A DNA stretch of 64,000 nucleotides from an uncultured archaeon (GCA_964508365.1 CAZDTP010000005.1:43084-107083), one strand, 5' to 3'; shown: positions 2,410-39,422, numbered from the stretch's first letter. A program made the numbers and translations. Notes: generated from the letters alone by a model not told the origin.

Positions 2410-2437
2410 TTTTTTTTATAAATATATTATTTTTTTT
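2408..2437 (+). terminator. Oligo-T archaeal terminator-like tract
   Basis: Two T runs immediately after the ligase stop codon. Confidence 0.5.
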
Positions 2438-2600
2438 TAATTTATCTTATTCTCTCAAGTTAGTAGTTAAAATTTCAGACTTCCTATTTTTAAGATGCAT
2501 CATTGACCATCAATTACTGCCTCTATTTTGGAGATTGTATATATTATAGATTTAAAGATATATGATTAGAATAAAATAAGAAAAAAAAAATGATTTTGTA

Positions 2601-4895: not shown

Positions 4896-4922
4896 TGCTT
4901 AAACTTTTTAAATTAAGTATAG

Positions 4923-4940
4923 ATTTTTTTTCTTTTTTTT
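4923..4940 (+). terminator. Oligo-T terminator-like tract
   Basis: T7-c-T9-like run about 30 nt after the acyl-CoA dehydrogenase stop. Confidence 0.45.
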
Positions 4941-5011
4941 AGTTGAAAACAATTATAAGGGAGTAAATCCAACTCTATATATATTCAAATTAAGGTTATT
5001 GAGAATTAATA

Positions 5012-5833: not shown

Positions 5834-5876
5834 ACTAAATTAGTATCACTACAATGTAAGGTTAATTCTAATTATA

Positions 5877-7397: not shown

Positions 7398-7522
7398 TTC
7401 TTTTACATCAATATCTAGTTTTGAGATAATCTCGAAATTCTTATTAAATGTGTTTGATATTTAATATTTTTATAATAAAATTATTATTATTTTTGATCCC
7501 ATCAGAGAAGTGTAATATAAAA

Positions 7523-9214: not shown

Positions 9215-9288
9215 ACCAGATAGATAAGAGAATCAAATCATTTTTATAAATAATAATCGAATTAAATAAGAAAATTAAAAAAAGATTG

Positions 9289-19719: not shown

Positions 19720-19917
19720 ATGGAAAGTAAGTTTAACCTCTGCCCTCGATGCAAAGGTACTAGAATAATTGATATAGGCGATACCATTGAATGCCCAGAT
19801 TGCAGATTAGAATTTGAAAAAGCTGATATTGAAGCCCTTGAGTCTGACCAAATTTTCGCAATATCTGAAAAACTAGAGTTTATTAGGGGCATTAAGAACA
19901 ATAATAATAATATTTGA
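19720..19917 (+). CDS. Small Zn-ribbon protein
   Basis: CPRC-x14-CPDC in a 65-aa ORF. Confidence 0.75.
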   Translation: MESKFNLCPRCKGTRIIDIGDTIECPDCRLEFEKADIEALESDQIFAISEKLEFIRGIKNNNNNI

Positions 19918-21081: not shown

Positions 21082-22446
21082 TTATAAACGAGTTATATAT
21101 CTATTTCGCTCCCATTCAGACACTACAAGTTTATAAGCGTCGTTTTCTTCTAATTTCGCATAATAAAAGTTTTTGAACGGTTGTTCCCCGAAGATTTCTT
21201 TCATGTATTCAGAATTTCTAAATTCTTTCAGCGCTTCCATTAAACTTCCAGGGAGAGAATTGATTCCTTCCTTCTCCATTTCTTTCGATGTCAGATGATA
21301 CACATTTCTATCAGTAGGTTCGTAGAGTTCAATGTCATCAGATAAAATTCCATATAAACCGGTACTTAATAGAACAGCGAACTGTAGATAAGGATTACCC
21401 GCGGGATCTGGGCAACGAATCTCGCACCTAGCAGCAGTTCTCTTGCCATGGAAGTCTGGAACTCTGATTAATGGTGATCTATTCCGGAATCCCCATGCTA
21501 TATATACCGGAGCTTCATACCCAGGTACTAATCGCTTATACGAGTTTGGCCAACTGCTTAATACTGCACACATAGCTTTCGCATATGTCAGCTGACCAGC
21601 AATCCACTTTTTCATTAATAAAGATATATGTGCTGGGTCTGATTCATCATAAAATACGTTTTTACCTTCTTTCCATAGGCTCTGATGACAGTGCATCCCA
21701 GATCCGTTTATCCCATCAAAAGGTTTAGGCATAAAAGTTGCCGTCATATTATTCTGAGCAGCCACAGTCTTTATAATTGCTTTTATCGTAATTGTATTGT
21801 CCGCACTTTCAACTGCTTTGTCGTAGCGAAAATCAACTTCGTGCTGACCAAAAGCTACCTCGTGATGAAGCGCTTCGATTTCAATTCCCATTTTATCACA
21901 GTATTCTGCAATCGTGTAGCGCATACGTTCATTAATATCATATGGATCATAATCAAAATATCCTCTCATATCAGAAGGTTTAAAAGCAGCCTGGCTATTT
22001 TCTTGGTCCAATATAAAAAACTCCATTTCTGGAGCACAAACATAATCAAATCCATGCTTTCTTGCTTTTTTTACAGCCTTCTGTAGAATATAGCGAGGAT
22101 CTCCATCGTATCTCTCCCCACTTGGAGTATAAATATCGCAGATTGCTCTGGCTACTCTGTTATTTGTCGCATTGTTTCGCCAAGGTAATATATAAAAAGT
22201 ACTAGGATCAGGCAATGCAACCTTATCGGATTCCTCGATTGCCCCATACCCCGTTATAGAACTCCCATCAAAATTCTCGCCTATTTCAAAACATTCCTCT
22301 ATTCGTTTTGAGTTAATTTCAAAGGATTTAATTATCCCATGAATATCGGTAAATTGAAGGTATATAAACTTAATGTCCTCCTCTTTAACCCGCTCGATTA
22401 CGTCTTCACATAATCCCTTCCTATTTGGATCTCCCTTTTCAATCAT
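21082..22446 (-). CDS. glnA: Glutamine synthetase type I
   Basis: LQFTDIHG, FDGSSI, HHEVAFGQHE, FMPKP..GINGSGMH, RLVPGYEAP, NRSPLIR and EIRCPD. Confidence 0.97.
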   Translation of the reverse strand: MIEKGDPNRKGLCEDVIERVKEEDIKFIYLQFTDIHGIIKSFEINSKRIEECFEIGENFDGSSITGYGAIEESDKVALPDPSTFYILPWRNNATNNRVARAICDIYTPSGERYDGDPRYILQKAVKKARKHGFDYVCAPEMEFFILDQENSQAAFKPSDMRGYFDYDPYDINERMRYTIAEYCDKMGIEIEALHHEVAFGQHEVDFRYDKAVESADNTITIKAIIKTVAAQNNMTATFMPKPFDGINGSGMHCHQSLWKEGKNVFYDESDPAHISLLMKKWIAGQLTYAKAMCAVLSSWPNSYKRLVPGYEAPVYIAWGFRNRSPLIRVPDFHGKRTAARCEIRCPDPAGNPYLQFAVLLSTGLYGILSDDIELYEPTDRNVYHLTSKEMEKEGINSLPGSLMEALKEFRNSEYMKEIFGEQPFKNFYYAKLEENDAYKLVVSEWERNRYITRL

Positions 22447-22529: not shown

Positions 22530-22898
22530 TCATTCATAGATTAACAAATAATTTTTTTCTTTTTCGAAGATTTTTGATTCAATATTTGGTAAATTTTTGA
22601 TAGTTTTTAATTGAGAAATTCCATATTTTAAATTGAAGAAATTTCTAAATTTAAGACTCGAATTACAGTTCCAGATAAACTCCTCTTTTGGTTTAAAATC
22701 AGAAAATTTAGGTTCAGAAGCGATCTTAATGTAAAATTCATCTGGTTTTTGATGACCAAATGCAGTTGTTTGTTCATAATGAGAGTAAGTGTAGTTCTCG
22801 GGGATATTTATGCTATCAATTGATTTATCTTCACATGTGTGGCATATTTTTCTGTCGTAATAATATTCCTTTCCGCAAATTGGGCATTTTAATGACAT
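22530..22898 (-). CDS. Small N-terminal Zn-ribbon protein upstream of glnA; paralog of 32312-32539
   Basis: KCPICGKEYYYDRKICHTC ... WNCNSS. Confidence 0.8.
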   Translation of the reverse strand: MSLKCPICGKEYYYDRKICHTCEDKSIDSINIPENYTYSHYEQTTAFGHQKPDEFYIKIASEPKFSDFKPKEEFIWNCNSSLKFRNFFNLKYGISQLKTIKNLPNIESKIFEKEKNYLLIYE

Positions 22899-22935
22899 TT
22901 ATAATCAATATTCAAATCTAATTTTGTTACTAAAA

Positions 22936-22948
22936 GGGATTAATTCCC
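22936..22948 (-). promoter_or_regulatory. Candidate operator, inverted repeat GGGAATTAATCCC
   Basis: GC-rich inverted repeat in an AT-rich intergenic region, 37 nt upstream of ATG 22898; mirrors 31886-31899. Confidence 0.5.
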
Positions 22949-23188
22949 TAATTTTAATTTAATAAATATTATAATGATCACATATATAAAAATATTGACT
23001 TTTTTTAGTACATTTGTTAACATTATTGGAAGAAAAAGTTTTAACATGGTAACTTATTGAATAAGAAAATGAACGAATGAATAATTTTATACTTTTTGTC
23101 GTTATGAAAAATGATCAACCGAATATATTTTCACTTAATTTTTGGACAATTGCATACTTTTATAATGATTATATAACTTTCATATACT

Positions 23189-23683
23189 ATGACGGAACAA
23201 TCTAGCCTTGACAACATTGACGATTTAGATTTTGAGATCTTAAAGAAATTGAGCGCTGACGGTAGGATTTCCCTTCGACAGCTTGCAAATGATTTAGGAA
23301 AAAAATCGCCTGTAACGATTAAAAATCATGTTGAGAAATTGGAGAACAATGGTATTATCACGAGTTATGGAGTTCAAATTGACTACGAAAAATTGGGATA
23401 TGAAATTATTGCGCTTATCGAAATAACAGTTTCCAAAGGTAAACTGCTTGAAGTTGAAAAGAAGATTGCCCATAATCCAAATGTTTTCGCTGTATACGAT
23501 ATTACTGGAACGTATGATGCACTTATTCTTGCACGATTTAAAACGAGGGCAAAGCTCAGTGAAATGATAAAAGGCGAGCTTCTTGCTTCTCCTTTTGTTG
23601 AGCGAACAAATACTCATTTAGTCTTAAACGTGATTAAGGAACGTAGTTCGTTTAATGAGTTAATGAAGAAAAAAGAGAATTAG
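23189..23683 (+). CDS. Lrp/AsnC family transcriptional regulator
   Basis: LDDLDFEILKKLSADGRISLRQLA HTH and VYDITGTYD ligand-binding domain; divergent from the glnA unit. Confidence 0.92.
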   Translation: MTEQSSLDNIDDLDFEILKKLSADGRISLRQLANDLGKKSPVTIKNHVEKLENNGIITSYGVQIDYEKLGYEIIALIEITVSKGKLLEVEKKIAHNPNVFAVYDITGTYDALILARFKTRAKLSEMIKGELLASPFVERTNTHLVLNVIKERSSFNELMKKKEN

Positions 23684-23891
23684 AAATCTCTAATTCTAAT
23701 TAAGAAAGTTTAAATAAACATTAGCATGTCGAGTCTTTTTACCACCGATACCGCAATTAGCGCTATTAGGAGCCCGAACACGCTCATTACTTGAGATAAT
23801 TCGGAAACGATAATATCAAGAAATTAGAAAACAATTTTTAAAATATAATAATCCTGTTATTTTGAGAATTAGGAATATTCATTAAATACAA

Positions 23892-24650
23892 TTGATCTTA
23901 ACTATGGATCGCAATCAGAAGAAAATTAGCATCGTCATAATTGTAGTATTGCTTGCCACATCATCAATATTAATACCATTTATTTTTGTATTCTTGAGCA
24001 ATACTGCAACTAAACCTCAAATAGTTTTCACTCCCAATTATTTAAAGTCCTTTCCAAACCATACAGTATGGTTATTAGCGGAAGCATATTCGGGAGAAAC
24101 AGATTTTAGCGGTAACTACTCAGTAAGAATTGAAGCAAATGAATCAATTGATATAGAGTATAAAGTTTGGGACAATCAGGTTAATTATAAAGTTATAGAA
24201 TTATTCATCAAACCAAACTCTACACATCTAAATCATAAAATAGAAATAAAACTAGAGCTTGTAGATAATGAAATTATTTTAGAAAGTTTTGCCACTATCG
24301 ATGTCATTGACTGGGCACCTAAGAATATCACAGAAGTTGAAATAATGAGAGATGCTTTTATTTCTTATCTTTCATCAAATGCGAGTTCGATTGGAATCAA
24401 TGAAAGTATAATATGGGACGGGTTTGACAACGCGCCACAAATTTTGATTGTGGAGCATTATCTTTTTAGATCTGAATTTTGGGAATTGGAACTTTCTAGA
24501 CATGTTACAACTGCCCCATATGACTGGGTAAAGGTTTACATTAGGCCCAGAAATCAAATTAGTCCTATTTGGTCAGGAATCATCGAATCGTGGATTAGTG
24601 GTAACCATAATGTGTCTGAAATTGAACCTCCATCATCCATTTATCGTTAA
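23892..24650 (+). CDS. Membrane-anchored hypothetical protein
   Basis: 252-aa ORF with an N-terminal signal/TM helix. Confidence 0.75.
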   Translation: MILTMDRNQKKISIVIIVVLLATSSILIPFIFVFLSNTATKPQIVFTPNYLKSFPNHTVWLLAEAYSGETDFSGNYSVRIEANESIDIEYKVWDNQVNYKVIELFIKPNSTHLNHKIEIKLELVDNEIILESFATIDVIDWAPKNITEVEIMRDAFISYLSSNASSIGINESIIWDGFDNAPQILIVEHYLFRSEFWELELSRHVTTAPYDWVKVYIRPRNQISPIWSGIIESWISGNHNVSEIEPPSSIYR

Positions 24651-25009
24651 ATCTTAATAAAGATTTAAAATTTGAAGAAATCAACAACATCTCCATTATA
24701 AACTTGATACCCTTTTTTCTTCATATTTGTCCTTTTAAATTCAAATTCCTTTTTTGCAAAGATTTTAATCGAGATGTTCCTTAATTTTTTAGTTATTCTT
24801 ATTCTTTTTAAAAAGTCATTTCGATTTTCCTCTGGAAAAAACTTATTTATATTGTGAGTTTTTTTATTTTTCTTTAATATATTGATTATTTTACTATTCC
24901 ATCAGCCCACAGTTCACATGTCTTAAAATGTGCTTAAATTTTCGCGAATTTTTATCTAATTAGGATTTAATTTCTTAAAAAAATAAAAAGAATATGGTTA
25001 TTTCAATAA

Positions 25010-25591
25010 TTAAATTGGTTTTAATTCTTGGACGAATAAAGTTCTTGTATAGTTATATGTTGGAGCATGTGCAACACTTAATGAGTTAGCTGATCCTGTA
25101 GCGTCCCAAGTGGATTTCCAATATATTTCAATAGAATAAGTTCCAGTTGGTAGAGGTTGAGTTAATAGATTGATATGCAAATTATATGTAAGCTGACGGA
25201 AATATCCTCCTGAAGGTTCAGAATCGTAGTATAAAACTATAATAGTACGATTAGTTACACCGGTGACTACTAATGAAACATTGTAGCTAGACCTTATAGT
25301 AAAAGTATTATCCAGCGATAAGAGCGCAATGGCAGAAAATTCAACAAACAATCTTGAGTCTTGATTAATTGTTATATTTACTTAGGTATCATCCATTTTC
25401 TTATAAGTTAATTCATTATCAAAGATATATGCTGGAGAGTTCCATTCTTCGTATTGATATTGAAGGACGATATTGCGTTCAAGAGATCCTGGAAGAAATA
25501 CTGGTGCCATGAAGTAAATAAGAGCACTCGTAATTATAACGGAAAGTATTACACTCCCAATAATGCTCCCTAAAACTCCTTTTCCTGACAT
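25010..25591 (-). pseudogene. Membrane-anchored beta-sandwich protein interrupted by one in-frame TAA (25382-25384)
   Basis: ORFs 25382-25591 and 25010-25351 share a frame and join as ...KKMDDT*VNITINQDSRLFVEFSA...; similar to 2601-3089. Confidence 0.75.
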
Positions 25592-25998
25592 TTTTTCACC
25601 TTTAAAGTTATGCAGAATTTTTAAAATTAAATTGATTTAAATTTATATTAGCACAAATAAATATAAATGGTTTCACTAACTAATATGCTCTGAATTCTGT
25701 AAAAACTTAATCTGTCTTTACATTTCTACGAATTTATGAATTTAAAATAAATTAATATTCCAATTCGATTTTTTAAAAGATGCTTTCATTTCTATATTTG
25801 CGTGTTTGCATTAACGTCTTATTGTATATTTTCATTTTCTCTTATAAATTCGGCAATTTTTGGGCGTCTTATGTTCATCAAATTTTCATTGGAAAAAAAC
25901 TCTGAATTTACCTTTATAAACAGTAAATATTTTCAAACGATACAATTAAAGAAAAAGCTAATAATTCTTTTTTTGATTTAGTGATAATTATTCTCAAA

Positions 25999-26421
25999 TT
26001 ATTCAACAATTCTTGAGATCCTGGATAACGGATGCCCCTTAGCTTTCATTTCTAACTCATTAAACCATCCAAAAGGAAGGCGGAGCACTGAATAATCCTT
26101 TAATTTTAGATTCGATTCGATTTTTTTAAAAGACATGAAGGCAAATTCTAAAGTGCTAAGTTGGCCAAAAAGATGAGCAAACGGCACAATTACAATATTT
26201 GATATTTTTAGTTGTGCTGTAATTTTTTCAATTTCAACAATCCCTTTTTCTAAAAACTCTGGATTTTCTTCGTCTCGTTTTTCTGTACTAATAAATAGAA
26301 CTAAAGCATTTTTGATTTGAGCTTCTCTATTATTTTCCGTAATTTCTTCAATAATCTTTGACCGACCTTTCTTGGTTACTTTATATCGGAAATAATCAAC
26401 ATGAAACGATAAAAATCTCAT
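25999..26421 (-). CDS. Stand-alone archaeal threonyl-tRNA synthetase editing domain
   Basis: FHVDYF, VPFAHL, PFGW and KGHPLSRISR match the archaeal Thr-editing (DTD-like) domain. Confidence 0.88.
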   Translation of the reverse strand: MRFLSFHVDYFRYKVTKKGRSKIIEEITENNREAQIKNALVLFISTEKRDEENPEFLEKGIVEIEKITAQLKISNIVIVPFAHLFGQLSTLEFAFMSFKKIESNLKLKDYSVLRLPFGWFNELEMKAKGHPLSRISRIVE

Positions 26422-26460
26422 CTTTCTTCTAAACTTTTTATATTTGAATGTTACTTTAAT

Positions 26461-26781
26461 TTATTCAGATAAATTGGATCCACAAAACGGGCAAAATTTA
26501 ATATCTTCTTCGATTTTTTCGCCACAATACTTACATTTAGCGCTCAACTTTTCTGTAGTCAAAACTCCTTGCTCTATCTTTACATTGGTAGTCCTAGTAT
26601 TATCAGAGCCCAATTTCGGCACTTTAAATGTCGTTTTTGTGTCATGATCTACATTGCTATGGAGAAGTTTGTAAACGACAATAATTATAATGATGAAAAC
26701 AATAATTACAACAACAAATATCAGAACAAAAATACTAGTTATAAACCCAAAAATGTCAAACGGGAAGGAATTTTGCGGCAT
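26461..26781 (-). CDS. TM plus C-terminal zinc-ribbon protein
   Basis: Long hydrophobic helix, then CKYCG...CPFCG. Confidence 0.8.
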   Translation of the reverse strand: MPQNSFPFDIFGFITSIFVLIFVVVIIVFIIIIIVVYKLLHSNVDHDTKTTFKVPKLGSDNTRTTNVKIEQGVLTTEKLSAKCKYCGEKIEEDIKFCPFCGSNLSE

Positions 26782-26998
26782 CTTTATTCTATCAATATGA
26801 TTTAAATTTTATGCATATTAAACAAATTCAACTTAATAAAACTATGCCTAGACGAGTTTTTCATTGGAGTAAAATAATATATCCGAACCTAGATATAAAA
26901 AAGTTCGTATCTATTCCCTAGTTTTAGTTTTACCATTAAATACATTTAAATATCCCATCTTTCTATATATCCCATAAATTTAAAATTTTAAATAGAGA

Positions 26999-27781
26999 AT
27001 GAAAATGATATTTCAAGGATTTGATCTGTTATTTATAATATTGCCTATTGTAATCGTTCTTTTAATTTTTTTGGCATGCTTTCTACTTGCAGGGATAAAG
27101 GTAATATTGGAATATGAACGGCTTATAATATTCCGTCTTGGTAAATATAAGCGAACTATAGGACCAGGTGTTGTATATGTACTCCCAATCCTCGAAAAGT
27201 CTAGAAAAGTCGATTTGAGAATTGTAACCGCTGACATTCCTCGGCAAGAAGTCATTACGAGGGATAACATACCCGTTTTGGCGAATACAGTAGTTTACTT
27301 CAAGGTAGAAAAACCATCGGATGCAATCATCAAAATAGAGAACTATGCTTTTGCCGTTAGACAATACACACAGGCGGCTTTAAGAGATGTTGTCGGTAAT
27401 ATGGAATTAGATAGTGTTTTAACTGAAAGGGATAAAATTGCTGCCGACATTAGAAAGATTGTTGATCAAGAAACTAACGAATGGGGTATTGATATAAAAG
27501 CCATAAAGATACAAGAAATAGAATTACCTGCTGAAATGAAAAGAGCAATGGCTAAACAAGCAGAGGCAGAACGGGAAAAACGGGCAGCAATTATTGCTAG
27601 TGAAGGTGAGCTTGCGTCAGCAAGAAACCTAGCGGAAGCAGCCACGATGATGTCATCTCAACCTGGGGCTTTACAACTTAGAACTCTTCAAACTATTAGA
27701 GATATTTCTCAAGATCCTTCTGAAAAGATAGTTATATTCATGCCGTCTGATATAGGTAATATTCTTAAGAAATTTACGTGA
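26999..27781 (+). CDS. SPFH/Band 7 (stomatin-like) protein
   Basis: RLIIFRLGK, VDLRIVTADIPRQEVITRDN, AKQAEAEREKRA and LQLRTLQT. Confidence 0.93.
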   Translation: MKMIFQGFDLLFIILPIVIVLLIFLACFLLAGIKVILEYERLIIFRLGKYKRTIGPGVVYVLPILEKSRKVDLRIVTADIPRQEVITRDNIPVLANTVVYFKVEKPSDAIIKIENYAFAVRQYTQAALRDVVGNMELDSVLTERDKIAADIRKIVDQETNEWGIDIKAIKIQEIELPAEMKRAMAKQAEAEREKRAAIIASEGELASARNLAEAATMMSSQPGALQLRTLQTIRDISQDPSEKIVIFMPSDIGNILKKFT

Positions 27782-27782
27782 T

Positions 27783-28469
27783 ATGGAGGGTTCAAGGATG
27801 AGTAGAACTTTCTTAGATAATCAAAGATACGTACAAATAGCTTTCAATCATACAGCGGCAGATGTTTTAAGAATTTTACCCAAGATACCCTACGATCCTC
27901 GCTTAATTATCGAAGCTGGTACGCCATTCATTAAAAGAGAAGGAATTGCAGGGATAAGGTTGATTCGAAGACTTTGGCGAGGATTGCTTGTTGCGGATTT
28001 AAAAGTTACAGATGGAGCATACGAGGAAGTAGGATTCGCATATAGCGTCGGAGCTAATGCAGTTACTGCCGCGGGAACGGCCCCAACGGAAACTCTGGAT
28101 TTCTTTAACGAAATTTGTGAAAAATATGGATTAATTTCTATGATTGATATGCTTGGTCAAGAAAATCCTTTACGTAAATTGCTCCCGTTAAAATTTAAAC
28201 CTAAAGCAGTGGTAATTCATAAGGGTAGAGACGAAGAAATCAATCCACGAAGTATTATCAGATTTAAAGATATAAATAAGGTCCGATCAAAATACGGCGT
28301 TTTAATATCTGTGGCGGGTGGTTTAGATCACGATTCGGTAAGAAAAGCTTATTTCAATGGAGCAGATATAGCAATTTTAAATATTGTTAAACCCTCAGAT
28401 GAGAACAAAGGATTAATAGATACCGTGAATTTTCGATCACTGATTCCCTCAATCCTAAAAGAAGTTTAA
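27783..28469 (+). CDS. 3-hexulose-6-phosphate synthase-like protein (OMP decarboxylase barrel)
   Basis: IIEAGTPFIK, VADLKVTDG, HKGRDEE and SVAGG resemble Hps and the Hps domain of Fae-Hps. Confidence 0.75.
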   Translation: MEGSRMSRTFLDNQRYVQIAFNHTAADVLRILPKIPYDPRLIIEAGTPFIKREGIAGIRLIRRLWRGLLVADLKVTDGAYEEVGFAYSVGANAVTAAGTAPTETLDFFNEICEKYGLISMIDMLGQENPLRKLLPLKFKPKAVVIHKGRDEEINPRSIIRFKDINKVRSKYGVLISVAGGLDHDSVRKAYFNGADIAILNIVKPSDENKGLIDTVNFRSLIPSILKEV

Positions 28470-28504
28470 TAAAGTAATTTAATTACTTATTTTTTTATTT
28501 ATCT

Positions 28505-28672
28505 CTATTCTATTCTAATCGTATTTTTACAATCTTTACAGAATAATTCTAAGTAATTATGAGATTCCTTTAAGAATAACTTATGTCGTTTTATATCGCA
28601 ACCATAACATTTTCTCTTTCTATAAAAGAAATTGGGGGTAAAAAAGTTATTAGATTCTTTTATTCTACTCAT
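28505..28672 (-). CDS. 55-aa Zn-finger microprotein (not in ORF track)
   Basis: MSRIKESNNFFTPNFFYRKRKCYGCDIKRHKLFLKESHNYLELFCKDCKNTIRIE*: CxxC-x19-CxxC. Confidence 0.65.
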   Translation of the reverse strand: MSRIKESNNFFTPNFFYRKRKCYGCDIKRHKLFLKESHNYLELFCKDCKNTIRIE

Positions 28673-28803
28673 GAAGAGGAAAGATCAAGATTTTTATTTA
28701 AATCCCGCCTCGGTAACGATTTCTCGTTTTTAAAATATAATAACTAAAATTTTTGTTTTATTTTTCCTTATTAAAACCTCAGAATCTTTCTTTGGTATTT
28801 TGA

Positions 28804-30360
28804 TTAATATTCTTCTTTTTTAGCATAATTCACTTTGAATAGATCAAGCCATGGAACGAATGAAGTTAACCGTTTCTGAAAAGATTCAAAATTTTTCTTG
28901 TTTTTTAGCGACCATCCCGTTTCTGCAACAGCAATTAAGCGAGGAAATGTTTCCCAATCTAAAATTTCCTTAGTTGGTACAAATTCAGTCCATAAACAGG
29001 CTTCAAGACCCAATATATTCTTATGAAATTTTTCTTCTAAATTGCTTGGGATGGGATCATAGTTATATGTTTGATGGAGTGGAATTAATTTATAAGGATA
29101 ATCAAAATAAAGAGTTTTCATTTCCGACATCACAACTTCTCTCCCTCTGCGTACATGATCTAGCACCTCATTAAAATTATTTATCCAATATTGACACAAA
29201 GCGCTACTAATAAGATCATCGTTAAGAATATCGTTCCAAACTATTATCCTTCGACCTTTAGATGCTAAATATCTAGCAATTCTATTTGTAAAATATGATT
29301 GTAAATTCGCAACAGTGTTAAGCCCTTCAGTTTGAATAAGAGCTTGACATTTAGGACATTCTTTCCATCTCATTGTAGGAACTTCATCTCCACCTACATG
29401 GATTATCTTAGAAGGAAAGATATTAACAATTTCGTCTAAAACATTTTCTAAAAACTCAAAAATTTCGCTGTTACCAACGCAGAGGACATCTCTATGAACG
29501 CGAAACCGGGTGCTTACTTCAAAAGGACCTCCAGTACAACTTAGATGGGGATAAGAAGCTAAAATAGCAGTTGTATGACCGGGAATATCAATCTCGGGAA
29601 TAATGGAAATATGGCGTTCAGTAGCATAGCATATTATCTCTTTTAATTCTTTTTGAGTATAATATCCCATTACTGGTATTCCATCAATAGGAATTTTCTG
29701 TTTTTCAGAGCAAAGGAGTGCTTTTTGCCTAGCTGTAATAGTTCCTTCTCTCTTTGAACCAATTTCAGTAAGTAAAGGATATTTTTTTACTTCAAAGCGC
29801 CAACCTTGGTCATCTGTAAGATGCCAGTGAAATTTATTTAACTTTAAAAATGCCATTAAATCGAGGATATACTTTATAACTTTTTTTCCAAAAAAGTGAC
29901 GAGATTCATCTAACATAAATCCTCGCCACTGGAATCGAGGATAATCCTCAATTACGACACACGGAATAGAGAATTCCAAATTTAAGTTTTTTTTTCCATT
30001 TAATTCAAGTGGAATTAACTGTCGCATTGTCTGGATACCGTAATATACCCCATTAGGTGTAGAAGCCATTATCTTAATATGATCTTGTGAAACTATTAAA
30101 TCGTATCCTTCTTGGTTTAGCTGTTTTTCGTTATTAATTAGTTTAAGAATAATTACGTTATTATTTTCCTTAGTTTGCAAATCTTCCTTTATAACAATAT
30201 TTAATCCGAATGTGGACAATAAAATATCCTTCAATTGCTCGGCAGTTTCTTTTAAATTTAGATCTGTCAAAATTATTGTTTGTTCGTTTAGAGTAAATAC
30301 CCCCTCTTTTGAAGAGATATTAACAGGCTTCGGGATTATTTTCAGATATTCTTCAATCAT
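28804..30360 (-). CDS. Beta-N-acetylhexosaminidase, GH20
   Basis: DYPRFQWRGFMLDESRHF, HWHLTDDQGWR, PEIDIPGH and the catalytic HVGGDE. Start at MIEEYL (30360); the ORF track extends to 30426. Confidence 0.93.
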   Translation of the reverse strand: MIEEYLKIIPKPVNISSKEGVFTLNEQTIILTDLNLKETAEQLKDILLSTFGLNIVIKEDLQTKENNNVIILKLINNEKQLNQEGYDLIVSQDHIKIMASTPNGVYYGIQTMRQLIPLELNGKKNLNLEFSIPCVVIEDYPRFQWRGFMLDESRHFFGKKVIKYILDLMAFLKLNKFHWHLTDDQGWRFEVKKYPLLTEIGSKREGTITARQKALLCSEKQKIPIDGIPVMGYYTQKELKEIICYATERHISIIPEIDIPGHTTAILASYPHLSCTGGPFEVSTRFRVHRDVLCVGNSEIFEFLENVLDEIVNIFPSKIIHVGGDEVPTMRWKECPKCQALIQTEGLNTVANLQSYFTNRIARYLASKGRRIIVWNDILNDDLISSALCQYWINNFNEVLDHVRRGREVVMSEMKTLYFDYPYKLIPLHQTYNYDPIPSNLEEKFHKNILGLEACLWTEFVPTKEILDWETFPRLIAVAETGWSLKNKKNFESFQKRLTSFVPWLDLFKVNYAKKEEY

Positions 30361-30506
30361 AATATTAACTTCCGTTCTTAAATTTAATAGGAATAGATAA
30401 AATGGTTGATCGTAAGAAATTCTCATTCGAATAAAAATATTGTTTATTAAGAGAATATGTATTGAACCAAGAAATCTTAAAATTAGTTCATACTATTTTG
30501 ATCACC

Positions 30507-30608
30507 ATGACCGATAAGTTACTTTTTGTTGAATTCTTAGAAAAAGAGAGGAAAAAGAAAGAGGAGTTAGAGGAAATAAAAGAGTTAAAGGATTTAGAGA
30601 CTCCTTAA
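30507..30608 (+). CDS. Possible 33-aa charged peptide
   Basis: MTDKLLFVEFLEKERKKKEELEEIKELKDLETP* in a purine-rich tract. Confidence 0.25.
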   Translation: MTDKLLFVEFLEKERKKKEELEEIKELKDLETP

Positions 30609-30881
30609 GAGAAATCGACGAACAAATTTCAAAAAATGAAAGTAGCGATTAAAAAAGACAGATAAAAATAGGTAAAAATCGTAGGGAGAATGAGCTAGTA
30701 ATAGTTAACGGGAAATAAATAGTTGTTGAAAGCAAAACCCTTAATCTTATAGATTTTGGGATTATTATCTGAGTTCTTATAATTTATTTTTAATAATTAC
30801 CTTATTTTTAAAATAGAAGTTAATCACTAACGCTATCCCCTTAGGTTATACAAGGATAATTCAATCAATCTCAATCCATTA

Positions 30882-31559
30882 CTATAACTTTGATTTATTC
30901 TTTCTTTTAGTTCTTATTAGCGAAAATATTCCGTAAATTAACATTATTATTAATAAAATTAGTACTGGGAACATATCAATAATGAATGATGAATAAAATG
31001 AATCTGTAACAACTGGAACTAAACCACATATAAATAAAGAAATAATATAAACTATTGAAATAAAAAAAGTTGTTAATAGAACAACACCAAGAATTCTTTC
31101 GTTCTTAGCATTTACTATACCTTTTTTAGTATAAAATAAATTAAGCTCCTTATTCCCTATAAGAGCAAAAAATGCGCTAAAGATAAATCCCCAAATCGAT
31201 AACCGCATAACAACTAACCCGGAAAATTCATAAAATTGACTTACCATTAGTTGTATAACTGCAATTATATAAATTCGATTTTTATCGTATTGATTACCAA
31301 GTTTAGCATTACGCAACTGAACAAAATATACCCTTAATAAAACAATAGCACTAATTAACAAGAAAAGTTCAAGAAAATTGAAAACGAATTTTGGTTCCCC
31401 AACTGGATTACGAGGTATAAGGATATAAAATCCATAAACCCAATGAATCATATCACCAATATCATATCCTATAGCATGAGTTACATGAGTAGGGAAAATA
31501 AATCCACACAACGAACAACCAAGCGATAAATAAAAGTATATACTAATTTTCCAAGGCAT
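30882..31559 (-). CDS. Multi-pass membrane hypothetical protein
   Basis: 225-aa ORF with about six hydrophobic segments. Confidence 0.7.
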   Translation of the reverse strand: MPWKISIYFYLSLGCSLCGFIFPTHVTHAIGYDIGDMIHWVYGFYILIPRNPVGEPKFVFNFLELFLLISAIVLLRVYFVQLRNAKLGNQYDKNRIYIIAVIQLMVSQFYEFSGLVVMRLSIWGFIFSAFFALIGNKELNLFYTKKGIVNAKNERILGVVLLTTFFISIVYIISLFICGLVPVVTDSFYSSFIIDMFPVLILLIIMLIYGIFSLIRTKRKNKSKL

Positions 31560-31885
31560 GTGTTCCTTCTTGTTTTATAAGTTGTGTAAAATTCTCTAAT
31601 AATACATTGGTTTTTGTCAATTTAAATATATTTCTCATTTCTAGAGTAGACTCTTCAAGAAATTTTTTAGTAATACGCTATTAAATTCTCAGTTTTTTGT
31701 CGGTACGCGTTTTTTTGTGGTTAAAAATTTTTTAGCGCAAAACAATAAGTTTATAAGCAAGAAGAGCTAATTCTAAACAAAAAATGAAAATCTCGAACAT
31801 AAAATGAACAAATTTTAAGAAAAATAACGAGACAAAAGACTTAAAAGGCTACAAACCTTACTAAATTTAAAATATTTTCATTTGA

Positions 31886-31899
31886 GGGAAAAGATTCCC
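31886..31899 (+). promoter_or_regulatory. Candidate operator, inverted repeat GGGAAAAGATTCCC
   Basis: Perfect 5-bp arms (GGGAA/TTCCC), 37 nt upstream of ATG 31937 and just downstream of a TTTAAAATA TATA-like element. Confidence 0.55.
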
Positions 31900-31936
31900 A
31901 TAAAAAAATTAAAAAAAAATTGGATGTGAATTATGA

Positions 31937-32191
31937 ATGATGTTGGAAGAAATAGAAAAAAGCCCTGAGGCTGCAATAATTGCAGTAAACGAAGTATTTA
32001 AGACATACGAGCTAATGTGTTTGGATAAGTTAAAGGAAATTGGAAGATCAACAGCTCGAGAATGGTCTTTCGCAATGGGCTACACACATCGTTCTTCACT
32101 TGCGAAAATCATACGAAGAATCACAGAGAGATACCCTGAGATGATTAAAATCTATGATAACCAGTTTCCTCGACTTTACGAAGCAATATAA
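31937..32191 (+). CDS. Small winged helix-turn-helix protein
   Basis: G-RSTAREWSFAMGY-THRSSLAKIIRRI followed by a wing (KIY...PRLYEA). Confidence 0.7.
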   Translation: MMLEEIEKSPEAAIIAVNEVFKTYELMCLDKLKEIGRSTAREWSFAMGYTHRSSLAKIIRRITERYPEMIKIYDNQFPRLYEAI

Positions 32192-32311
32192 TGTTCACTA
32201 AAGAAATGTAAGCTGAGATGTCTTTCTGGAACTTTTTCACGCATTTGATTTCGCACAAATTAGAAATTCAATTTTTTTATAAATATGAAGATCAATTAAA
32301 GTGGTTGAAAA

Positions 32312-32539
32312 ATGATAATAAAGTGTAAAGATTGTGGAATAGAGTACTCATATAGCCGAAATATTTGTCATATGTGTGGAGGTAATACATTATTCTTTGG
32401 TGCAATTTTTGAAGAGGAATTATCAGAACGCAATTGGAACTGTGTTTCAAGTGCTCAATGTATTGAGATTTTATTAGAAAAACATGAATTACCTGAATCA
32501 ATTATTGAAGTATTTCCTGAAAATAGGAGGGAGCTGTGA
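32312..32539 (+). CDS. Small N-terminal Zn-ribbon protein upstream of glutamate synthase; paralog of 22530-22898
   Basis: KCKDCGIEYSYSRNICHMC ... WNCVSS; ends 6 nt before the synthase ATG. Confidence 0.8.
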   Translation: MIIKCKDCGIEYSYSRNICHMCGGNTLFFGAIFEEELSERNWNCVSSAQCIEILLEKHELPESIIEVFPENRREL

Positions 32540-32545
32540 TATAGA

Positions 32546-34195
32546 ATGACAAAATTTTCTATGACAACACACCAGACAAGCATGATTGGTTCAAGGACAA
32601 GGGTTGAAGATTCTTGCGAGTCTGGATTATGTCCAATATGCATTGCAGATTGTCCTGTGTTCTGCGAAGTTTCGAAATCAGCATTAAGAGGTCGCGAAGC
32701 GTTATATCCTCGAAGAGAATATTTTGGAAACTCAACTGCGGGAACACCAAAAGATTTTGGGTTAGCCTATGGTGATTTCCAAATTCAATTTGAAGTGCGA
32801 GGCGCTCAAGGGATCGAAGCTCATGAAGACAAGGTGATTTTTCCAAATGTGGATATGACGATGCGTTGGGGTAACATACAGCAAAAATTACCTATCGTGA
32901 TTGCTGGACTTGGCAGTACGTACGTAGCTAAACGAAATTGGGAAGGTTTAGCAATTGGCGCTGCTTTAGCAGGTGTAAGTCTTACAATTGGAGAAAATGT
33001 AGTTGGAATGGATCAATTTGCTCAATTCGCAAATCACAGCGTTTATCCCAAAGTAACTGATACAGATGATATGAAATTTCGTGTTAACACCTATCGAGAT
33101 TTTTGGGATGGAAAGCATGGTGATATTATTGTACAGAAAAATGTTGAAGACACTAGGCTTGGAGTATTCGATTATGTAATGTCAAAATTGGATATAGAAT
33201 CACTTGAGTTGAAATTCGGTCAAGGAGCAAAAGCAATCGGTGGGGAAGTAAGGTTATCATCTTTAGAAAGAGCACAATTACTTCAAGAACGAGGCTATTT
33301 AGTCTTTCCTGATCCCTCAGATCCAATGGTTGTAGATCAATGGAACGCTGGGTTAATACCTGATTTTGAGAGGCATAGCAGAGTAGGATTGTCCACGACT
33401 GAAGATGTTTTAGAAGAAATAGATCAAGTTCGCTCATCAGGAGCAAAAAATATATTTATTAAAACTGGAGCCTATCGTCCAGCGGCAACAGCATGGCTAT
33501 TAAGGTTAGCAGTGGAAGGAAAGGTAGATGGAATAACATTTGATGGTGCTGGAGGAGGAACAGGGATGAGTCCAGTGAGTATGATGAATGAAGGGTCAAT
33601 TCCAACCGTTTATTTAGAAGCTCTTGTAGTTGGATGTTTGGATATGATAAAGAAGAAGAACCCTAATGTTAATATTCCAACCGTAGCCATCGCGGGAGGA
33701 ATCGCAAACGAGACGCAGATGTTCAAAGCTCTTGCCATGGGTGCCCCCTATGTGAAGTGTATCGCCATGGCAAGAGCTCCGCTTACAGCTGCTATGAAAT
33801 CTAAGTATGTTGGTGAAATAATATCAAAAGGAATGGTCACTCCAGCAATGCTGAAGAACTTAGGATTTCCTAGAGATAAGGATCCTTCAAGTTTAAGCCT
33901 TAATGAAGCTTTCGTAGAATACGATAAATTGCAGAGGACTTACGAAGGAAAAGAAATTCCTCCCTCCGCAGTGGGAGTTTATACATATTTTGAAAGTAAG
34001 CTCGGTATAGGTCTAAAACAACTATTAGCTGGGGTTAGAAAATTTAATTTGGACCTTTTAGATCGTCATGATATCGCTTACATTTCTCAACGAGCTAAAG
34101 ATGTATGCAATAAATGGGATTTGCAAATTGAGTCTCAAGAGTCTCTTGATTTTGAATTGGTAAAGAACGAGATATATTCGGGTAACTACGAATAA
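32546..34195 (+). CDS. FMN-binding glutamate synthase family protein (archaeal GltB2-type)
   Basis: ELKFGQGAKAIGG, FDGAGGGTG, IAGG and IAMARAP; Cys-rich N-terminus (CPICIADCPVFCE). Confidence 0.88.
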   Translation: MTKFSMTTHQTSMIGSRTRVEDSCESGLCPICIADCPVFCEVSKSALRGREALYPRREYFGNSTAGTPKDFGLAYGDFQIQFEVRGAQGIEAHEDKVIFPNVDMTMRWGNIQQKLPIVIAGLGSTYVAKRNWEGLAIGAALAGVSLTIGENVVGMDQFAQFANHSVYPKVTDTDDMKFRVNTYRDFWDGKHGDIIVQKNVEDTRLGVFDYVMSKLDIESLELKFGQGAKAIGGEVRLSSLERAQLLQERGYLVFPDPSDPMVVDQWNAGLIPDFERHSRVGLSTTEDVLEEIDQVRSSGAKNIFIKTGAYRPAATAWLLRLAVEGKVDGITFDGAGGGTGMSPVSMMNEGSIPTVYLEALVVGCLDMIKKKNPNVNIPTVAIAGGIANETQMFKALAMGAPYVKCIAMARAPLTAAMKSKYVGEIISKGMVTPAMLKNLGFPRDKDPSSLSLNEAFVEYDKLQRTYEGKEIPPSAVGVYTYFESKLGIGLKQLLAGVRKFNLDLLDRHDIAYISQRAKDVCNKWDLQIESQESLDFELVKNEIYSGNYE

Positions 34196-34292: not shown

Positions 34293-36092
34293 TTAATTCA
34301 TTGCTTTTTCAAATTCGTTAACAAATGCTTCATATTGGTTTATCCCTAACTCCCAGAAATCTTTTTTTGTGATATCTAATCCAACTATCTCACCTAAATC
34401 TTCTGGAGATAAACTACCGCCAGCCGCCAACAATTTCTTAAATTTAGGAACAAAGGCTTTACCCTCTTTTTTATAAGTCTGATACAACGCATATACAAAA
34501 AGCTGAGCGTAAACATAGGGATAATTATAGAATCGAAAATTCGGGAAAAAGTAATGCGGTTTCATTGTCCATTCCCAGTCCATCTCTTCGAACCATTCAA
34601 CAGAATTTCCGTAAATCTTATCTCTTCCAGCGCACCAGTATTTTGAAATCGTTTTACCATCTAAATTTTCACCATTTTCAATAGCTTTATACAAATCTTG
34701 TTCAAACCACACCCTCGCGCTTACTTGAAATACTGCTTGTCCTGCGTCGTCTAAAACATGTGCTAAAATAGCTAATTTTTCTTCCTTAGAGTTAGCCTTT
34801 TCGAGGAGGAGATCTGTCATTAATAACTCTCCAAAAGTGGATGCTGTTTCTGCAACTGTGTAACCTGGAAATGTGTTAAAGTACGTTTGTTCATCAATCG
34901 CTAGATAATTGTGTATAGCGTGGCCAAGTTCATGCATTAATGTAAATATTTCAGTCAATTCTCCAGTATAGGTCATGAGAATATAAGAGGATTTCCCTTT
35001 AAACCAAGAAGCGCAGTTTGCTCCATTCCGTTTTCCCTCCCGTGGACTTGCATCGATATGATTTCGATTAAACATATCACGTACAATCTCTACACATTCT
35101 GAATCGAATTTTTCATATGCTTGAATTACTAATTCTATTGCATCATCCCAGGAATGCTTTGTATGTGGAACATTAGGCAGTGGAGCTCTGATATCCGCGC
35201 AATTTAATTTAGGAAGGTTCAAAACATCAGTTTTAAGTTTTAAATATCTACGGTACACACCTACACCCTTCTCAATAGCTTTCATCAAATTATCGATAAT
35301 CTCTTGCCTTGTATCATTAGCTAAGAGACTATGGTGCATTGGACTATCGTACTTGCGCCTTTTAGAATTATTTACCCAATCTCCACATATACTTCTTAAT
35401 GCTAAAGAAAATACTGTTTCCTCTTTCCCTAGTAAGCCATAAATCGATTTATTTGCTGATATTCGGGTCCCTCTATCTGGGTGAGTAAGTAATGCGTTAG
35501 CTTCCCCATACGATAATTCTTTATCTTCACCTTCGACATTTACTGTGAATTTTCTTGTATTCAACCACTTAGACTGCAAGGTACTCCATGCTCTTACTCC
35601 ATATTGATCCTTTTCAAGAATTAGTTGTTCTTCTAATTCGGTTAGATTATGAGGAAACTTTCTTTTAATATTTTCTAAAATATGTTGATACTTCAATAAA
35701 ATGGGATCATCTACTAAAACTGGATTATCATTGACTAACTTCGCTACATCGAGTTCTAAAAAAGCTAAGTCCTTAGATATTTTAGTCGTGAAATCTTCAA
35801 CTTTGTTTTTTAAAGCTTCACTCTCAGGAACAGTCATTTTTGCACTATATAGCCTATTCTGATAGAGGTCAATTTCGCTTATATCGGCTTGAAATTTCTC
35901 TTGTCTCTTGAATAAATCTAACAAGTTTTGTGGAGTAAAGCTAGCAGAAGTAATCTTTCCTTTGTAATCGTTTATAATATTTTCTGTTTCTTTTTTAAGG
36001 CTGTTCAATATTTCAGCTATTTTGGGATCATTATGACTTGCAAAGATTTCAGTTAAATCCCATGCAATTTCATTTTCGGTCATAATAAACAA
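34293..36092 (-). CDS. pepF: Oligoendopeptidase F (peptidase M3B)
   Basis: WDLTEIF, KRNGANC, HELGH, AETAS, and HYF..FYNYPY. Confidence 0.92.
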   Translation of the reverse strand: MFIMTENEIAWDLTEIFASHNDPKIAEILNSLKKETENIINDYKGKITSASFTPQNLLDLFKRQEKFQADISEIDLYQNRLYSAKMTVPESEALKNKVEDFTTKISKDLAFLELDVAKLVNDNPVLVDDPILLKYQHILENIKRKFPHNLTELEEQLILEKDQYGVRAWSTLQSKWLNTRKFTVNVEGEDKELSYGEANALLTHPDRGTRISANKSIYGLLGKEETVFSLALRSICGDWVNNSKRRKYDSPMHHSLLANDTRQEIIDNLMKAIEKGVGVYRRYLKLKTDVLNLPKLNCADIRAPLPNVPHTKHSWDDAIELVIQAYEKFDSECVEIVRDMFNRNHIDASPREGKRNGANCASWFKGKSSYILMTYTGELTEIFTLMHELGHAIHNYLAIDEQTYFNTFPGYTVAETASTFGELLMTDLLLEKANSKEEKLAILAHVLDDAGQAVFQVSARVWFEQDLYKAIENGENLDGKTISKYWCAGRDKIYGNSVEWFEEMDWEWTMKPHYFFPNFRFYNYPYVYAQLFVYALYQTYKKEGKAFVPKFKKLLAAGGSLSPEDLGEIVGLDITKKDFWELGINQYEAFVNEFEKAMN

Positions 36093-39327: not shown

Positions 39328-39422
39328 ATATGTGAGTTTTAGTTTATGAGGAATAATTAATTATTAGATTTAGCAGAAATTATTATATAAAATAAAATAA
39401 AAAAGAAAAAAAGTGTAAAATT

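What the first reader, a model, noticed from the sequence alone, without database searches (positions are those of the whole stretch)
22530..32539. Paralogous Zn-ribbon microproteins dedicated to the two ammonium-assimilation genes
Seen: 22530-22898(-) lies directly upstream of glnA and 32312-32539(+) lies 6 nt upstream of glutamate synthase. Their N-termini align at 13 of 22 residues (KCxxCGxEYxYxRxICHxC), and both carry a later WNCxSS motif and LP...F. Known: GS and glutamate synthase form the GS/GOGAT cycle, whose characterised archaeal regulators are NrpR, GlnK/PII and the GlnP peptide; none has this motif. Inference: the same small family placed independently in front of both cycle enzymes suggests an undescribed accessory or regulatory factor, either an enzyme-binding modulator or a transcription/translation regulator.
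Basis: partly seen in the sequence, partly recalled or inferred. Interest (0 to 1): 0.85.

Follow-up and report, generated by a model that had tools for sequence, protein, structure and literature searches.

The report
Asgard zinc-ribbon proteins heading nitrogen operons
Two small zinc-ribbon proteins in front of glutamine synthetase and a glutamate-synthase-like gene belong to an unnamed, lineage-restricted Asgard family whose paralogs head the GS, GOGAT and GDH operons, sit beside or are fused to DNA-binding regulators, and so look like a home-grown control system for nitrogen assimilation.

Summary
Both ORFs exist at the stated coordinates: 83 nt before glnA, and 6 nt before a 549-aa FMN glutamate-synthase-domain gene. 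They share a zinc-ribbon N-terminus (BLASTP E 4e-8).

They belong to an undescribed family with no Pfam or NCBIfam model. Its signature is KCPxCG..YSYGR.I[C/Y]HxC, then G.IF, then WNC. Many members carry a second WNC and end in hydrophobic-hydrophobic-[Y/F]-E.

The family was found in only one family-level group of its phylum (42/68 genomes against 0/232), at 1-7 copies per genome.

Of 119 distinct members examined:
- 56 sit at glnA, GOGAT-component or gdh genes.
- 16 head a PfkB-like kinase operon.
- 29 lie beside a histidine kinase/receiver pair, and 17 of these are fused to a complete Lrp/AsnC regulator.

An 84-aa HTH-like gene directly precedes 35 of 38 GOGAT-type members. Lrp flanks 15 of 21 glnA-type members. 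A GGGA-N5/6-TCCC palindrome precedes many of these operons. In this genome it lies 37 nt before a start codon at exactly two places: these two operons.

The genome has no PII or NrpR.

Best reading (0.45): operon-specific regulatory adaptors that work with HTH partners. The main rival is pure enzyme-binding modulators (0.3).

Structure models were poor, and the complex prediction gave no verdict.

The scan had already noted the zinc-ribbon-Lrp fusions on other genomes.

The parts
22530..22898 (-). P0001, 122 aa. It is the glnA-clade member of the zinc-ribbon family: C5-x2-C8...C19-x2-C22, a second-repeat WNC at 76-78, and a C-terminal LLIYE.
   Evidence: AF2 is confident only for residues 1-30.
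21082..22446 (-). glnA, type I glutamine synthetase, 83 nt downstream of P0001.
   Evidence: TIGR00653, 489.8 bits, above cut-off.
22936..22948 (.). Palindrome GGGAATTAATCCC, 37 nt before the P0001 start codon. Candidate operator.
22975..22990 (-). TTTATATA followed by TGTGATCA. This TATA-like box plus second short palindrome is conserved upstream of glnA-type members in both genera.
23189..23683 (+). Lrp/AsnC regulator, divergent from P0001 across a 290-nt spacer.
   Evidence: Lrp lies within 1.2 kb of 15/21 glnA-type members.
31886..31899 (.). Palindrome GGGAAAAGATTCCC, 37 nt before the start codon of the 84-aa gene. Candidate operator.
31937..32191 (+). Conserved 84-aa protein, HTH-like and without a Pfam family. 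It is the first cistron of the unit and precedes 35/38 GOGAT-type family members.
32312..32539 (+). P0002, 75 aa. It is the GOGAT/GDH-clade member of the family: C5, C8, H20, C22, WNC 42-44, and no YE end.
32546..34195 (+). 549-aa FMN glutamate-synthase-domain protein with an N-terminal Cys-rich motif, 6 nt after P0002.
34293..36092 (-). Oligoendopeptidase-F-like gene, convergent. It marks the locus in relatives that have lost the gltB-like gene.
   Evidence: The name rests on sequence similarity among neighbours; it was not scanned against Pfam here.

Best explanation
P0001 and P0002 are two paralogs of a lineage-specific family of small zinc-ribbon proteins. They most likely act as regulatory adaptors of the glutamate/glutamine node.

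**What is shown**
- Each old paralog lineage is tied to one kind of operon. The kinds are glnA, GOGAT components or gdh, a PfkB-like kinase, and a kinase/receiver/Lrp cluster beside gdh.
- The proteins are usually the first or second cistron.
- They are paired with a DNA-binding-type protein: an 84-aa HTH-like protein directly upstream, an Lrp/AsnC gene alongside, or Lrp fused to their C-terminus.
- Many of these operons share a GGGA-N5/6-TCCC palindrome between a TATA-like box and the ribosome-binding site.

**What is inferred**
- The N-terminal 47-residue zinc-ribbon/WNC module is an input or docking module for the HTH partner. In the fusions it occupies the place that a receiver domain holds in a sister Lrp.
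- The poorly modelled, probably disordered tail carries short docking motifs: WNC repeats and the C-terminal hydrophobic-hydrophobic-[Y/F]-E. These bind a partner, probably the cognate enzyme.
- The state of GS, GOGAT or GDH would then feed back on transcription of the palindrome regulon. This resembles GlnR/TnrA with glutamine synthetase in Bacillus and Brz with Bat in Halobacterium.

This would supply nitrogen control in genomes that lack PII and NrpR.
For: **Family is real and conserved**
- C5, C8, C22 and W42 are invariant in 149 sequences, at 32% mean column identity.
- About 77 clusters at 50% identity exist among 1.84 billion representatives.

**Context**
- 56 of 119 members sit at glnA, GOGAT or gdh genes.
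- Neighbour type follows the family tree: 25 changes against 78.5 when shuffled, 0 of 200 shuffles as low.

**Link to HTH proteins**
- The 84-aa gene lies within 250 nt upstream of 35/38 GOGAT-type members.
- Lrp lies within 1.2 kb of 15/21 glnA-type members.
- 17/29 kinase-linked members are complete ZnR-Lrp fusions.
- ZnR-Lrp and REC-Lrp paralogs flank the same kinase/receiver pair next to gdh.
- The 84-aa gene and the family occur in the same genera.

**Independence from the enzyme**
- The pair of 84-aa gene and family member persists in five genomes with no intact gltB-like gene.

**Shared cis element**
- 36 of 119 members have the palindrome ahead of the operon's first cistron, including most operons led by the 84-aa gene.
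- In this genome only 2 of 30 copies lie 37 nt before a start codon, and they are exactly these two operons.

**Missing canonical regulators**
- No PII and no NrpR were found in the 100%-complete genome.
- PII was found in 0/21 and 2/20 genomes of the two family-bearing genera, against 18/39 in the other genera of the taxonomic family.

**Published analogue**
- Brz is a small CPxCG zinc-finger protein encoded directly upstream of bop. It regulates bop transcription, possibly together with the HTH protein Bat (PMC2253796).
- Lrp next to glnA is usual in haloarchaea, and Lrp activates glnA there (PMC8229911).
Against: - No DNA, RNA or protein binding has been shown for any member.
- The 84-aa protein has no significant HTH family match, only weak HTH_18 hits in 5 of 21 members. 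Language-model look-alikes (FaeA, HTH_5, LexA-type) scored 0.90 or less.
- It shows no profile similarity to Lrp.
- The PfkB-type and gdh-type members have no HTH neighbour.
- The kinase-linked and gdh-type members have no palindrome.
- Tight spacing to the enzyme gene (1-30 nt at gltB) and subfamily-specific tails fit an enzyme subunit equally well.
- Why each operon would need its own paralog if all act at one operator is explained only by the inferred enzyme contact.
- Related genomes are not independent. The PII anti-correlation may reflect one ancestral event.
Confidence: 0.45

Rival explanations
1. Pure post-translational modulators or small subunits. Each paralog binds the enzyme encoded next to it (GS, GOGAT FMN subunit, amidotransferase, GDH, kinase) and tunes its activity or assembly, as sP26 does for M. 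mazei GS or IF7/IF17 for cyanobacterial GS. It would have no role in transcription.
For: - Members are the cistron directly before the enzyme gene. Gaps are 1-30 nt at gltB and 25-100 nt at glnA.
- The tails are subfamily-specific and conserved across two genera.
- The glnA association is nearly perfect within clade A.
- The tails are poorly modelled, as expected for regions that fold on a partner.
- Small GS-binding proteins exist in archaea (10.1101/2020.05.06.080432; PMC10651883).
Against: - Intact members persist where no intact gltB-like gene is found.
- One clade is fused to Lrp, and another pairs almost always with an HTH-like gene.
- The same C-terminal motif occurs in members next to unrelated enzymes. 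This points to a common partner rather than an enzyme-specific one.
- Tandem proteins join a glnA-type and a GOGAT-type module.
Confidence: 0.3
2. RNA-binding translational regulators. The zinc ribbon binds the leader of its own mRNA, perhaps the GGGA...UCCC hairpin if it is transcribed, and controls translation of the downstream enzyme through coupling.
For: - The only weak PDB-sequence matches are to RNA-binding zinc ribbons (bL32, Nop10, uS14), and only over the CPxCG knuckle.
- The palindrome lies between the TATA-like box and the Shine-Dalgarno sequence, and may be transcribed.
- Members are the first cistron, closely followed by the enzyme gene.
Against: - The stem would have only 4-5 base pairs. 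Its sequence is invariant rather than covarying, which suits sequence-specific recognition of DNA.
- The fusion to a DNA-binding Lrp points to transcription.
- The PDB matches are not significant beyond about 10 residues.
Confidence: 0.1
3. The invariant C-terminal Glu is chemically used or docked. The protein would be a LysW-like carrier, a Pup-like tag activated by a GS-fold ligase, or a docking tail for the proteasome of the HbYX type.
For: - 63 of 119 members end in hydrophobic-[Y/F]-E, including 19/19 glnA-type and 14/14 PfkB-type members.
- The terminal Glu is invariant in the glnA subfamily.
- The architecture of a small zinc ribbon plus a flexible tail resembles LysW (own knowledge).
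Against: - There is no LysW or Pup family match.
- There is no ATP-grasp, PafA or Dop neighbour.
- glnA is a canonical GlnA equivalog.
- P0002 and whole clades lack the motif.
- In HbYX the last residue is free, whereas here it is fixed.
- C-terminal YE is not enriched in the proteome: 12 seen, 10.5 expected.
Confidence: 0.05

Closest known systems
Brz and the 'CPxCG-related' small zinc-finger proteins of archaea (Tarasov et al. 2008, PMC2253796)
   Same: - It is a small protein with a CPxCG knuckle and a second Cys/His pair 7-40 residues away.
- It is encoded directly upstream of the controlled gene in the same orientation.
- It is thought to act with an adjacent HTH regulator (Bat).
   Different: - There is no detectable sequence relationship beyond the knuckle.
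- Here the family has an extra G.IF...WNC segment, repeated WNC motifs and a fixed C-terminal motif.
- It has one paralog per operon, and some members are fused to Lrp.
- No effect on transcription has been shown here.
GlnR/TnrA with glutamine synthetase in Bacillus (glnRA operon; own knowledge)
   Same: - A small regulator is encoded immediately upstream of glnA.
- Its conserved C-terminal tail contacts the enzyme, so that the enzyme's state controls transcription.
   Different: - GlnR and TnrA are MerR-type HTH proteins.
- P0001 has no HTH and would need a separate DNA-binding partner.
- Contact with GS has not been shown.
sP26 (23 aa) and GlnK1 acting on M. mazei GS (10.1101/2020.05.06.080432; PMC10651883); IF7/IF17 of cyanobacteria (own knowledge)
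   Same: These are small proteins dedicated to glutamine synthetase.
   Different: - They have no zinc ribbon.
- They are not encoded in the glnA operon.
- They are single proteins, not a family spread over GS, GOGAT and GDH.
NrpR repressor system of methanogens (operator recalled as GGAA-N6-TTCC; own knowledge)
   Same: An inverted repeat with GGAA/TTCC-like half-sites lies just downstream of the TATA box of nitrogen operons.
   Different: - The spacing differs: GGGA-N5/6-TCCC, which is GGAA-N4-TTCC at most.
- No NrpR domain is present in this genome.
LysW amino-group carrier protein
   Same: It has a small N-terminal zinc ribbon, a flexible tail and a C-terminal Glu.
   Different: - There is no EDWGE motif.
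- There are no LysX/Z/Y/J/K neighbours.
- There is no significant sequence match: E 0.12-0.69, and only over the knuckle.

Membership tests
CPxCG-related small zinc-finger proteins (motif class of Tarasov et al. 2008) | [quoted passage not shown] | tested here: met
   P0001 has CPICG at residues 5-9 and P0002 has CKDCG at 5-9. C5 and C8 are invariant, and G9 is conserved in at least 90% of the sequences in the 28-sequence alignment.
CPxCG-related small zinc-finger proteins (motif class of Tarasov et al. 2008) | A second Cys/His pair, spaced by 2-3 residues, lying 7-40 residues away from the first | tested here: met
   C19-x2-C22 in P0001 and P0002. Many relatives have Y19 H20 x C22 instead, a pair spaced by one residue, which falls outside the strict definition.
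CPxCG-related small zinc-finger proteins (motif class of Tarasov et al. 2008) | For Brz itself: control of transcription of the downstream gene | not testable with these tools
   This needs deletion or expression data.
Lrp/AsnC regulators | AsnC-type HTH plus the RAM ligand-binding domain | tested here: not met
   P0001 and P0002 have neither domain. The 195-aa relatives such as L023 have both (HTH_AsnC 3e-14, AsnC_trans_reg 2e-7) after the zinc-ribbon module.
LysW amino-group carrier proteins | C-terminal EDWGE motif and lysX/argX (ATP-grasp) gene neighbourhood | tested here: not met
   The C-terminus is LLIYE in P0001 and NRREL in P0002. No ATP-grasp neighbour occurs among 119 loci. The PDB LysW match has E 0.69.
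Pup-type modifiers | C-terminal GGQ/GGE and a PafA/Dop ligase partner | tested here: not met
   There is no GG before the terminal Glu. The adjacent GS-fold gene is a canonical GlnA equivalog.
HbYX proteasome-docking tails | C-terminal hydrophobic-Tyr-any residue | tested here: inconclusive
   The pattern is formally met in 63/119 members. However, the last residue is fixed as Glu and Phe can replace Tyr. Binding to the 20S proteasome is not testable here.
PII/GlnK and NrpR nitrogen regulators | PF00543 or PF01995 domain | tested here: not met
   Neither domain is present anywhere in the genome, and neither is in P0001 or P0002.

The most novel reading that the evidence does not exclude
One family-level Asgard lineage would have replaced PII/NrpR-type nitrogen control with its own system. 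Paralogous zinc-ribbon adaptors would each read the state of their own enzyme (GS, GOGAT or GDH) through WNC and C-terminal hydrophobic-Tyr-Glu tail motifs. They would pass that state to an 84-aa winged-helix-like repressor or to Lrp at a GGGA-N5/6-TCCC operator. The same input module would be wired covalently to Lrp in a kinase-controlled gdh circuit.
Probability: 0.25. Interest if true: 0.85.

Novelty: new variant of a known kind. Interest (0 to 1): 0.72.

Why it matters
Nitrogen control in Asgard archaea, the closest known prokaryotic relatives of eukaryotes, is essentially uncharted. These genomes lack both PII and NrpR.

Here a single unnamed protein family marks the heads of the GS, GOGAT and GDH operons. 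It travels with a conserved candidate operator and with candidate DNA-binding partners.

That gives concrete, clonable parts for testing how this lineage senses and controls the glutamate/glutamine node:
- two small proteins,
- an 84-aa partner,
- Lrp,
- two promoter fragments.

It is also a clear case of small proteins that gene callers and family databases miss, and of a zinc-ribbon module used as an alternative to a receiver domain on Lrp regulators.

Tried and rejected
- **Complex prediction** of GltB, the 84-aa protein and P0002 as partner gave no verdict: score 0.00, controls not run. It counts neither for nor against binding.
- **AF2 monomer models** were poor. P0001 had mean pLDDT 60.9, with only residues 1-30 above 70. 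P0002 had 57.7. No fold search was run, because matches to such models are meaningless.
- **Profile search of PDB sequences** found only the 10-residue CPxCG knuckle (C2H2 fingers, bL32, Nop10, LysW). Nothing covered the domain.
- **ESM Atlas** gave no usable hit for a family member.
- **Profile comparison** of the 84-aa protein with a ZnR-Lrp fusion showed no similarity. Its Pfam and PDB searches were empty or weak.
- **A proteome-wide C-terminal YE signal** was rejected: 12 seen against 10.5 expected. The YE ends of GltB and GuaA look coincidental.
- **Other small zinc-ribbon ORFs** in the window (19720-19917, 28505-28672, and the C-terminus of 26461-26781) do not match the family HMM.
- **A chance ORF or non-coding reading** was rejected by invariant Cys/Trp columns across 149 sequences.
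- **My first motif regex** had a spacing error and found nothing. It was corrected.


Full report
**1. Observation**

Both ORFs are present as described.

- P0001 (22530-22898, minus strand, 122 aa) ends 83 nt before glnA. That glnA passes the GlnA equivalog threshold.
- P0002 (32312-32539, plus strand, 75 aa) ends 6 nt before a 549-aa protein. That protein passes Pfam Glu_synthase but matches no NCBIfam equivalog.

The two small proteins align only over their first 27 residues: 13 identities, E 4e-8. Neither reaches any Pfam or NCBIfam cut-off. In the window they are the only ORFs that match the family model. The genome holds a third, more divergent paralog on contig C12.

**2. The family**

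Relatives from the same genus gave a 52-residue core alignment, later widened to 149 sequences.

- C5, C8, C22 and W42 are invariant. G30, N43 and C44 are nearly so.
- Position 19/20 is C-H, C-Q or Y-H, so the third metal ligand is either Cys19 or His20.
- The core reads KCPxCG.EYSYGR.I[C/Y]H.C ... G.IF ... WNC.
- Longer members repeat a Y.WNC motif about 40 residues later.
- 63 of 119 members end in hydrophobic-hydrophobic-[Y/F]-E.
- P0001 has lost the first WNC and keeps the second. P0002 keeps the first and lacks the YE end.

An exhaustive HMM search of 1.84 billion representative proteins gave 177 hits. About 77 are true family clusters. The rest share only the knuckle.

Across the phylum the family was found in 42 of 68 genomes of one family-level group and in 0 of 232 genomes of 29 other groups. 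Within that group it occurs mainly in two genera, at 1-7 copies per genome. Sources name the relatives 'hypothetical protein', one of them from a Promethearchaeota MAG.

**3. Neighbours**

I fetched 1.5-8 kb around the hits. I called ORFs with a simple longest-ORF rule, clustered the neighbours by BLASTP, and named the clusters with Pfam and NCBIfam.

For 119 distinct members, the neighbouring genes were:

| Position | Gene | Members |
|---|---|---|
| Next downstream, same strand | glnA | 19 (plus 2 with an Lrp gene between) |
| Next downstream, same strand | gltB-like FMN gene | 16 |
| Next downstream, same strand | HdrB/HdrC-like Fe-S protein followed by a class-II amidotransferase | 11 |
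| Next downstream, same strand | class-II amidotransferase directly | 2 |
| Next downstream, same strand | gdh | 4 (plus 2 divergent from gdh) |
| Next downstream, same strand | weak PfkB-family kinase | 14 (plus 2) |
| Convergent | receiver-only response regulator plus histidine kinase | 29 |
| Convergent | pepF-like gene | 9 |

The nine pepF cases are the window's GOGAT locus without the gltB-like gene. One still carries a short gltB remnant fused to the small ORF. Five such genomes, 92-99% complete, have no intact gltB-like gene detectable with this query; the one match is a 49-residue remnant.

Larger flanks showed that the kinase-linked cluster lies next to gdh in three of four cases.

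A tree of the core domain has two well-supported halves.

- One half holds all glnA-type members plus the first module of 165-172-aa tandem proteins.
- The other half holds a PfkB clade, a kinase/Lrp clade and a GOGAT/GDH clade.
- Neighbour type needs 25 changes on the tree, against 78.5 after shuffling.

P0001 and P0002 are thus old paralogs, each tied to its own operon type. The caveat is that related genomes are not independent. The number of independent juxtapositions to GS, GOGAT or GDH genes is small, roughly five or more, not 56.

**4. Links to DNA-binding proteins**

- **Fusions.** Seventeen of the 29 kinase-linked members are 195-aa fusions. In these the WNC motif runs directly into a complete AsnC-type HTH and RAM domain.
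- **Twin Lrp paralogs.** Earlier notes of this scan on other genomes pointed to a sister Lrp carrying a receiver domain instead. I confirmed the arrangement REC-Lrp, kinase, receiver, ZnR-Lrp beside gdh in three loci. The zinc-ribbon module therefore sits where an input domain sits.
- **The 84-aa gene.** The gene upstream of P0002 is highly conserved, with 67% mean column identity. It lies within 250 nt upstream of 35 of 38 GOGAT-type members. It shares the family's distribution: 40/41 and 42/53 genomes in the two genera, and almost none elsewhere.
- **Its DNA-binding nature is only a lead.** It has weak HTH_18 hits, and language-model look-alikes to winged-helix families scored 0.90 or less.
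- **Lrp beside glnA.** An Lrp/AsnC gene lies within 1.2 kb of 15 of 21 glnA-type members, usually divergent, as in the window. The same pairing of lrp and glnA is known in haloarchaea, where Lrp activates glnA (PMC8229911).

**5. A shared cis element**

A GGGA-N5/6-TCCC palindrome lies ahead of the first cistron in 36 of the 119 members' upstream regions. That includes most operons led by the 84-aa gene, about a third of glnA-type operons and about half of PfkB-type operons. None of the kinase-linked or gdh-type members has it.

In this genome 30 copies exist. Only two lie 37 nt before a start codon, and they are those of P0001 and of the 84-aa gene.

Aligned promoters place the palindrome between a TATA-like box and the Shine-Dalgarno sequence. 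glnA-type promoters also share TTTATATA-TGTGATCA. The position suits a repressor site, but the start of transcription is not known.

**6. Missing canonical regulators**

The genome is 100% complete by marker genes. It has no PII and no NrpR domain, while the control genomes do.

Across the taxonomic family, PII was found in 0/21 and 2/20 genomes of the two genera that carry the zinc-ribbon family. It was found in 18 of 39 genomes of the other genera. This is suggestive of replacement, but it may be one ancestral event.

**7. Structure and binding**

AF2 models were confident only for the N-terminal ribbon. The tails are probably disordered and carry short motifs. The complex prediction gave no verdict.

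**8. Reading**

The family is real, unnamed and strongly tied to the glutamate/glutamine node. Three observations argue against a simple enzyme subunit and for a regulatory adaptor that works with HTH partners:

- the fusion to Lrp at the place of a receiver domain,
- the near-obligate pairing with an HTH-like gene,
- survival after loss of the enzyme gene.

The operon-specific tails suggest that the adaptor also touches its own enzyme, as GlnR/TnrA touch GS. I give this 0.45. I give the pure enzyme-modulator reading 0.3, an RNA-level role 0.1, and chemistry or docking at the terminal Glu 0.05.

The nearest published analogue is Brz of Halobacterium (PMC2253796). The family meets the CPxCG motif definition but shows no wider similarity to it.

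The characterised small GS partner in archaea is sP26 (10.1101/2020.05.06.080432).

Noticed in passing
window 38086-39324 and 39420-40670 (+): Two tandem glutamate dehydrogenase genes are 61% and 71% identical to a relative's gdh. Together with glnA, the gltB-like gene, pepF and guaA (36172-37731) they make this stretch a glutamate/glutamine island. No family member precedes them here.
   Followed up: partly
L079 (G133:C8) 2418-10001; also L108, L090, L101: The sister genus has a compact island. Its order is glnA, glnA-type member, divergent Lrp, short HTH-like gene, tandem two-module member, HdrBC-like Fe-S protein, class-II amidotransferase, then a 4Fe-4S/FMN gene. It looks like a split archaeal GOGAT with an Hdr-like electron-input subunit.
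   Followed up: partly
L142-L144 (for example L143 1499-6287): Twin Lrp/AsnC paralogs, one with a receiver domain and one with the zinc-ribbon module, flank a histidine kinase and a stand-alone receiver next to gdh. The stops of gdh and REC-Lrp overlap by 4 nt.
   Followed up: partly
L017 1501-1710 (G005), L019, L085: Where the gltB-like gene is lost, the small ORF runs into a short remnant of it (residues resembling GltB 355-375). This records the deletion.
   Followed up: partly
G000 contig C12 67861-68085 (L008 1489-1716): The third paralog of this genome is 75 aa, has a shortened knuckle (CEKCG...YHDC) and ends in LLIYE. It lies 117 nt before a weak PfkB-family kinase. In relatives that operon often carries the same palindrome and a radical-SAM or acyl-CoA dehydrogenase gene. 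The substrate is unknown.
   Followed up: partly
window 31937-32191; alignment A4: The 84-aa protein ends in an almost invariant P-R-x-Y-E-A-[LIM]. This recalls the L-[LI]-Y-E end of the zinc-ribbon proteins. It may be chance or a shared docking motif.
   Followed up: no
G000 contig C23 53259-53477 (-): A second, 72-aa copy of the HTH-like protein stands alone near an amidase-like gene, without a palindrome. Most genomes of the genus have such a second copy.
   Followed up: partly
L071, L078, L117 (gdh-type members): A 110-aa gene lies divergent from the gdh-type members, 130-200 nt away. It may be another small DNA-binding protein. It was not scanned.
   Followed up: no
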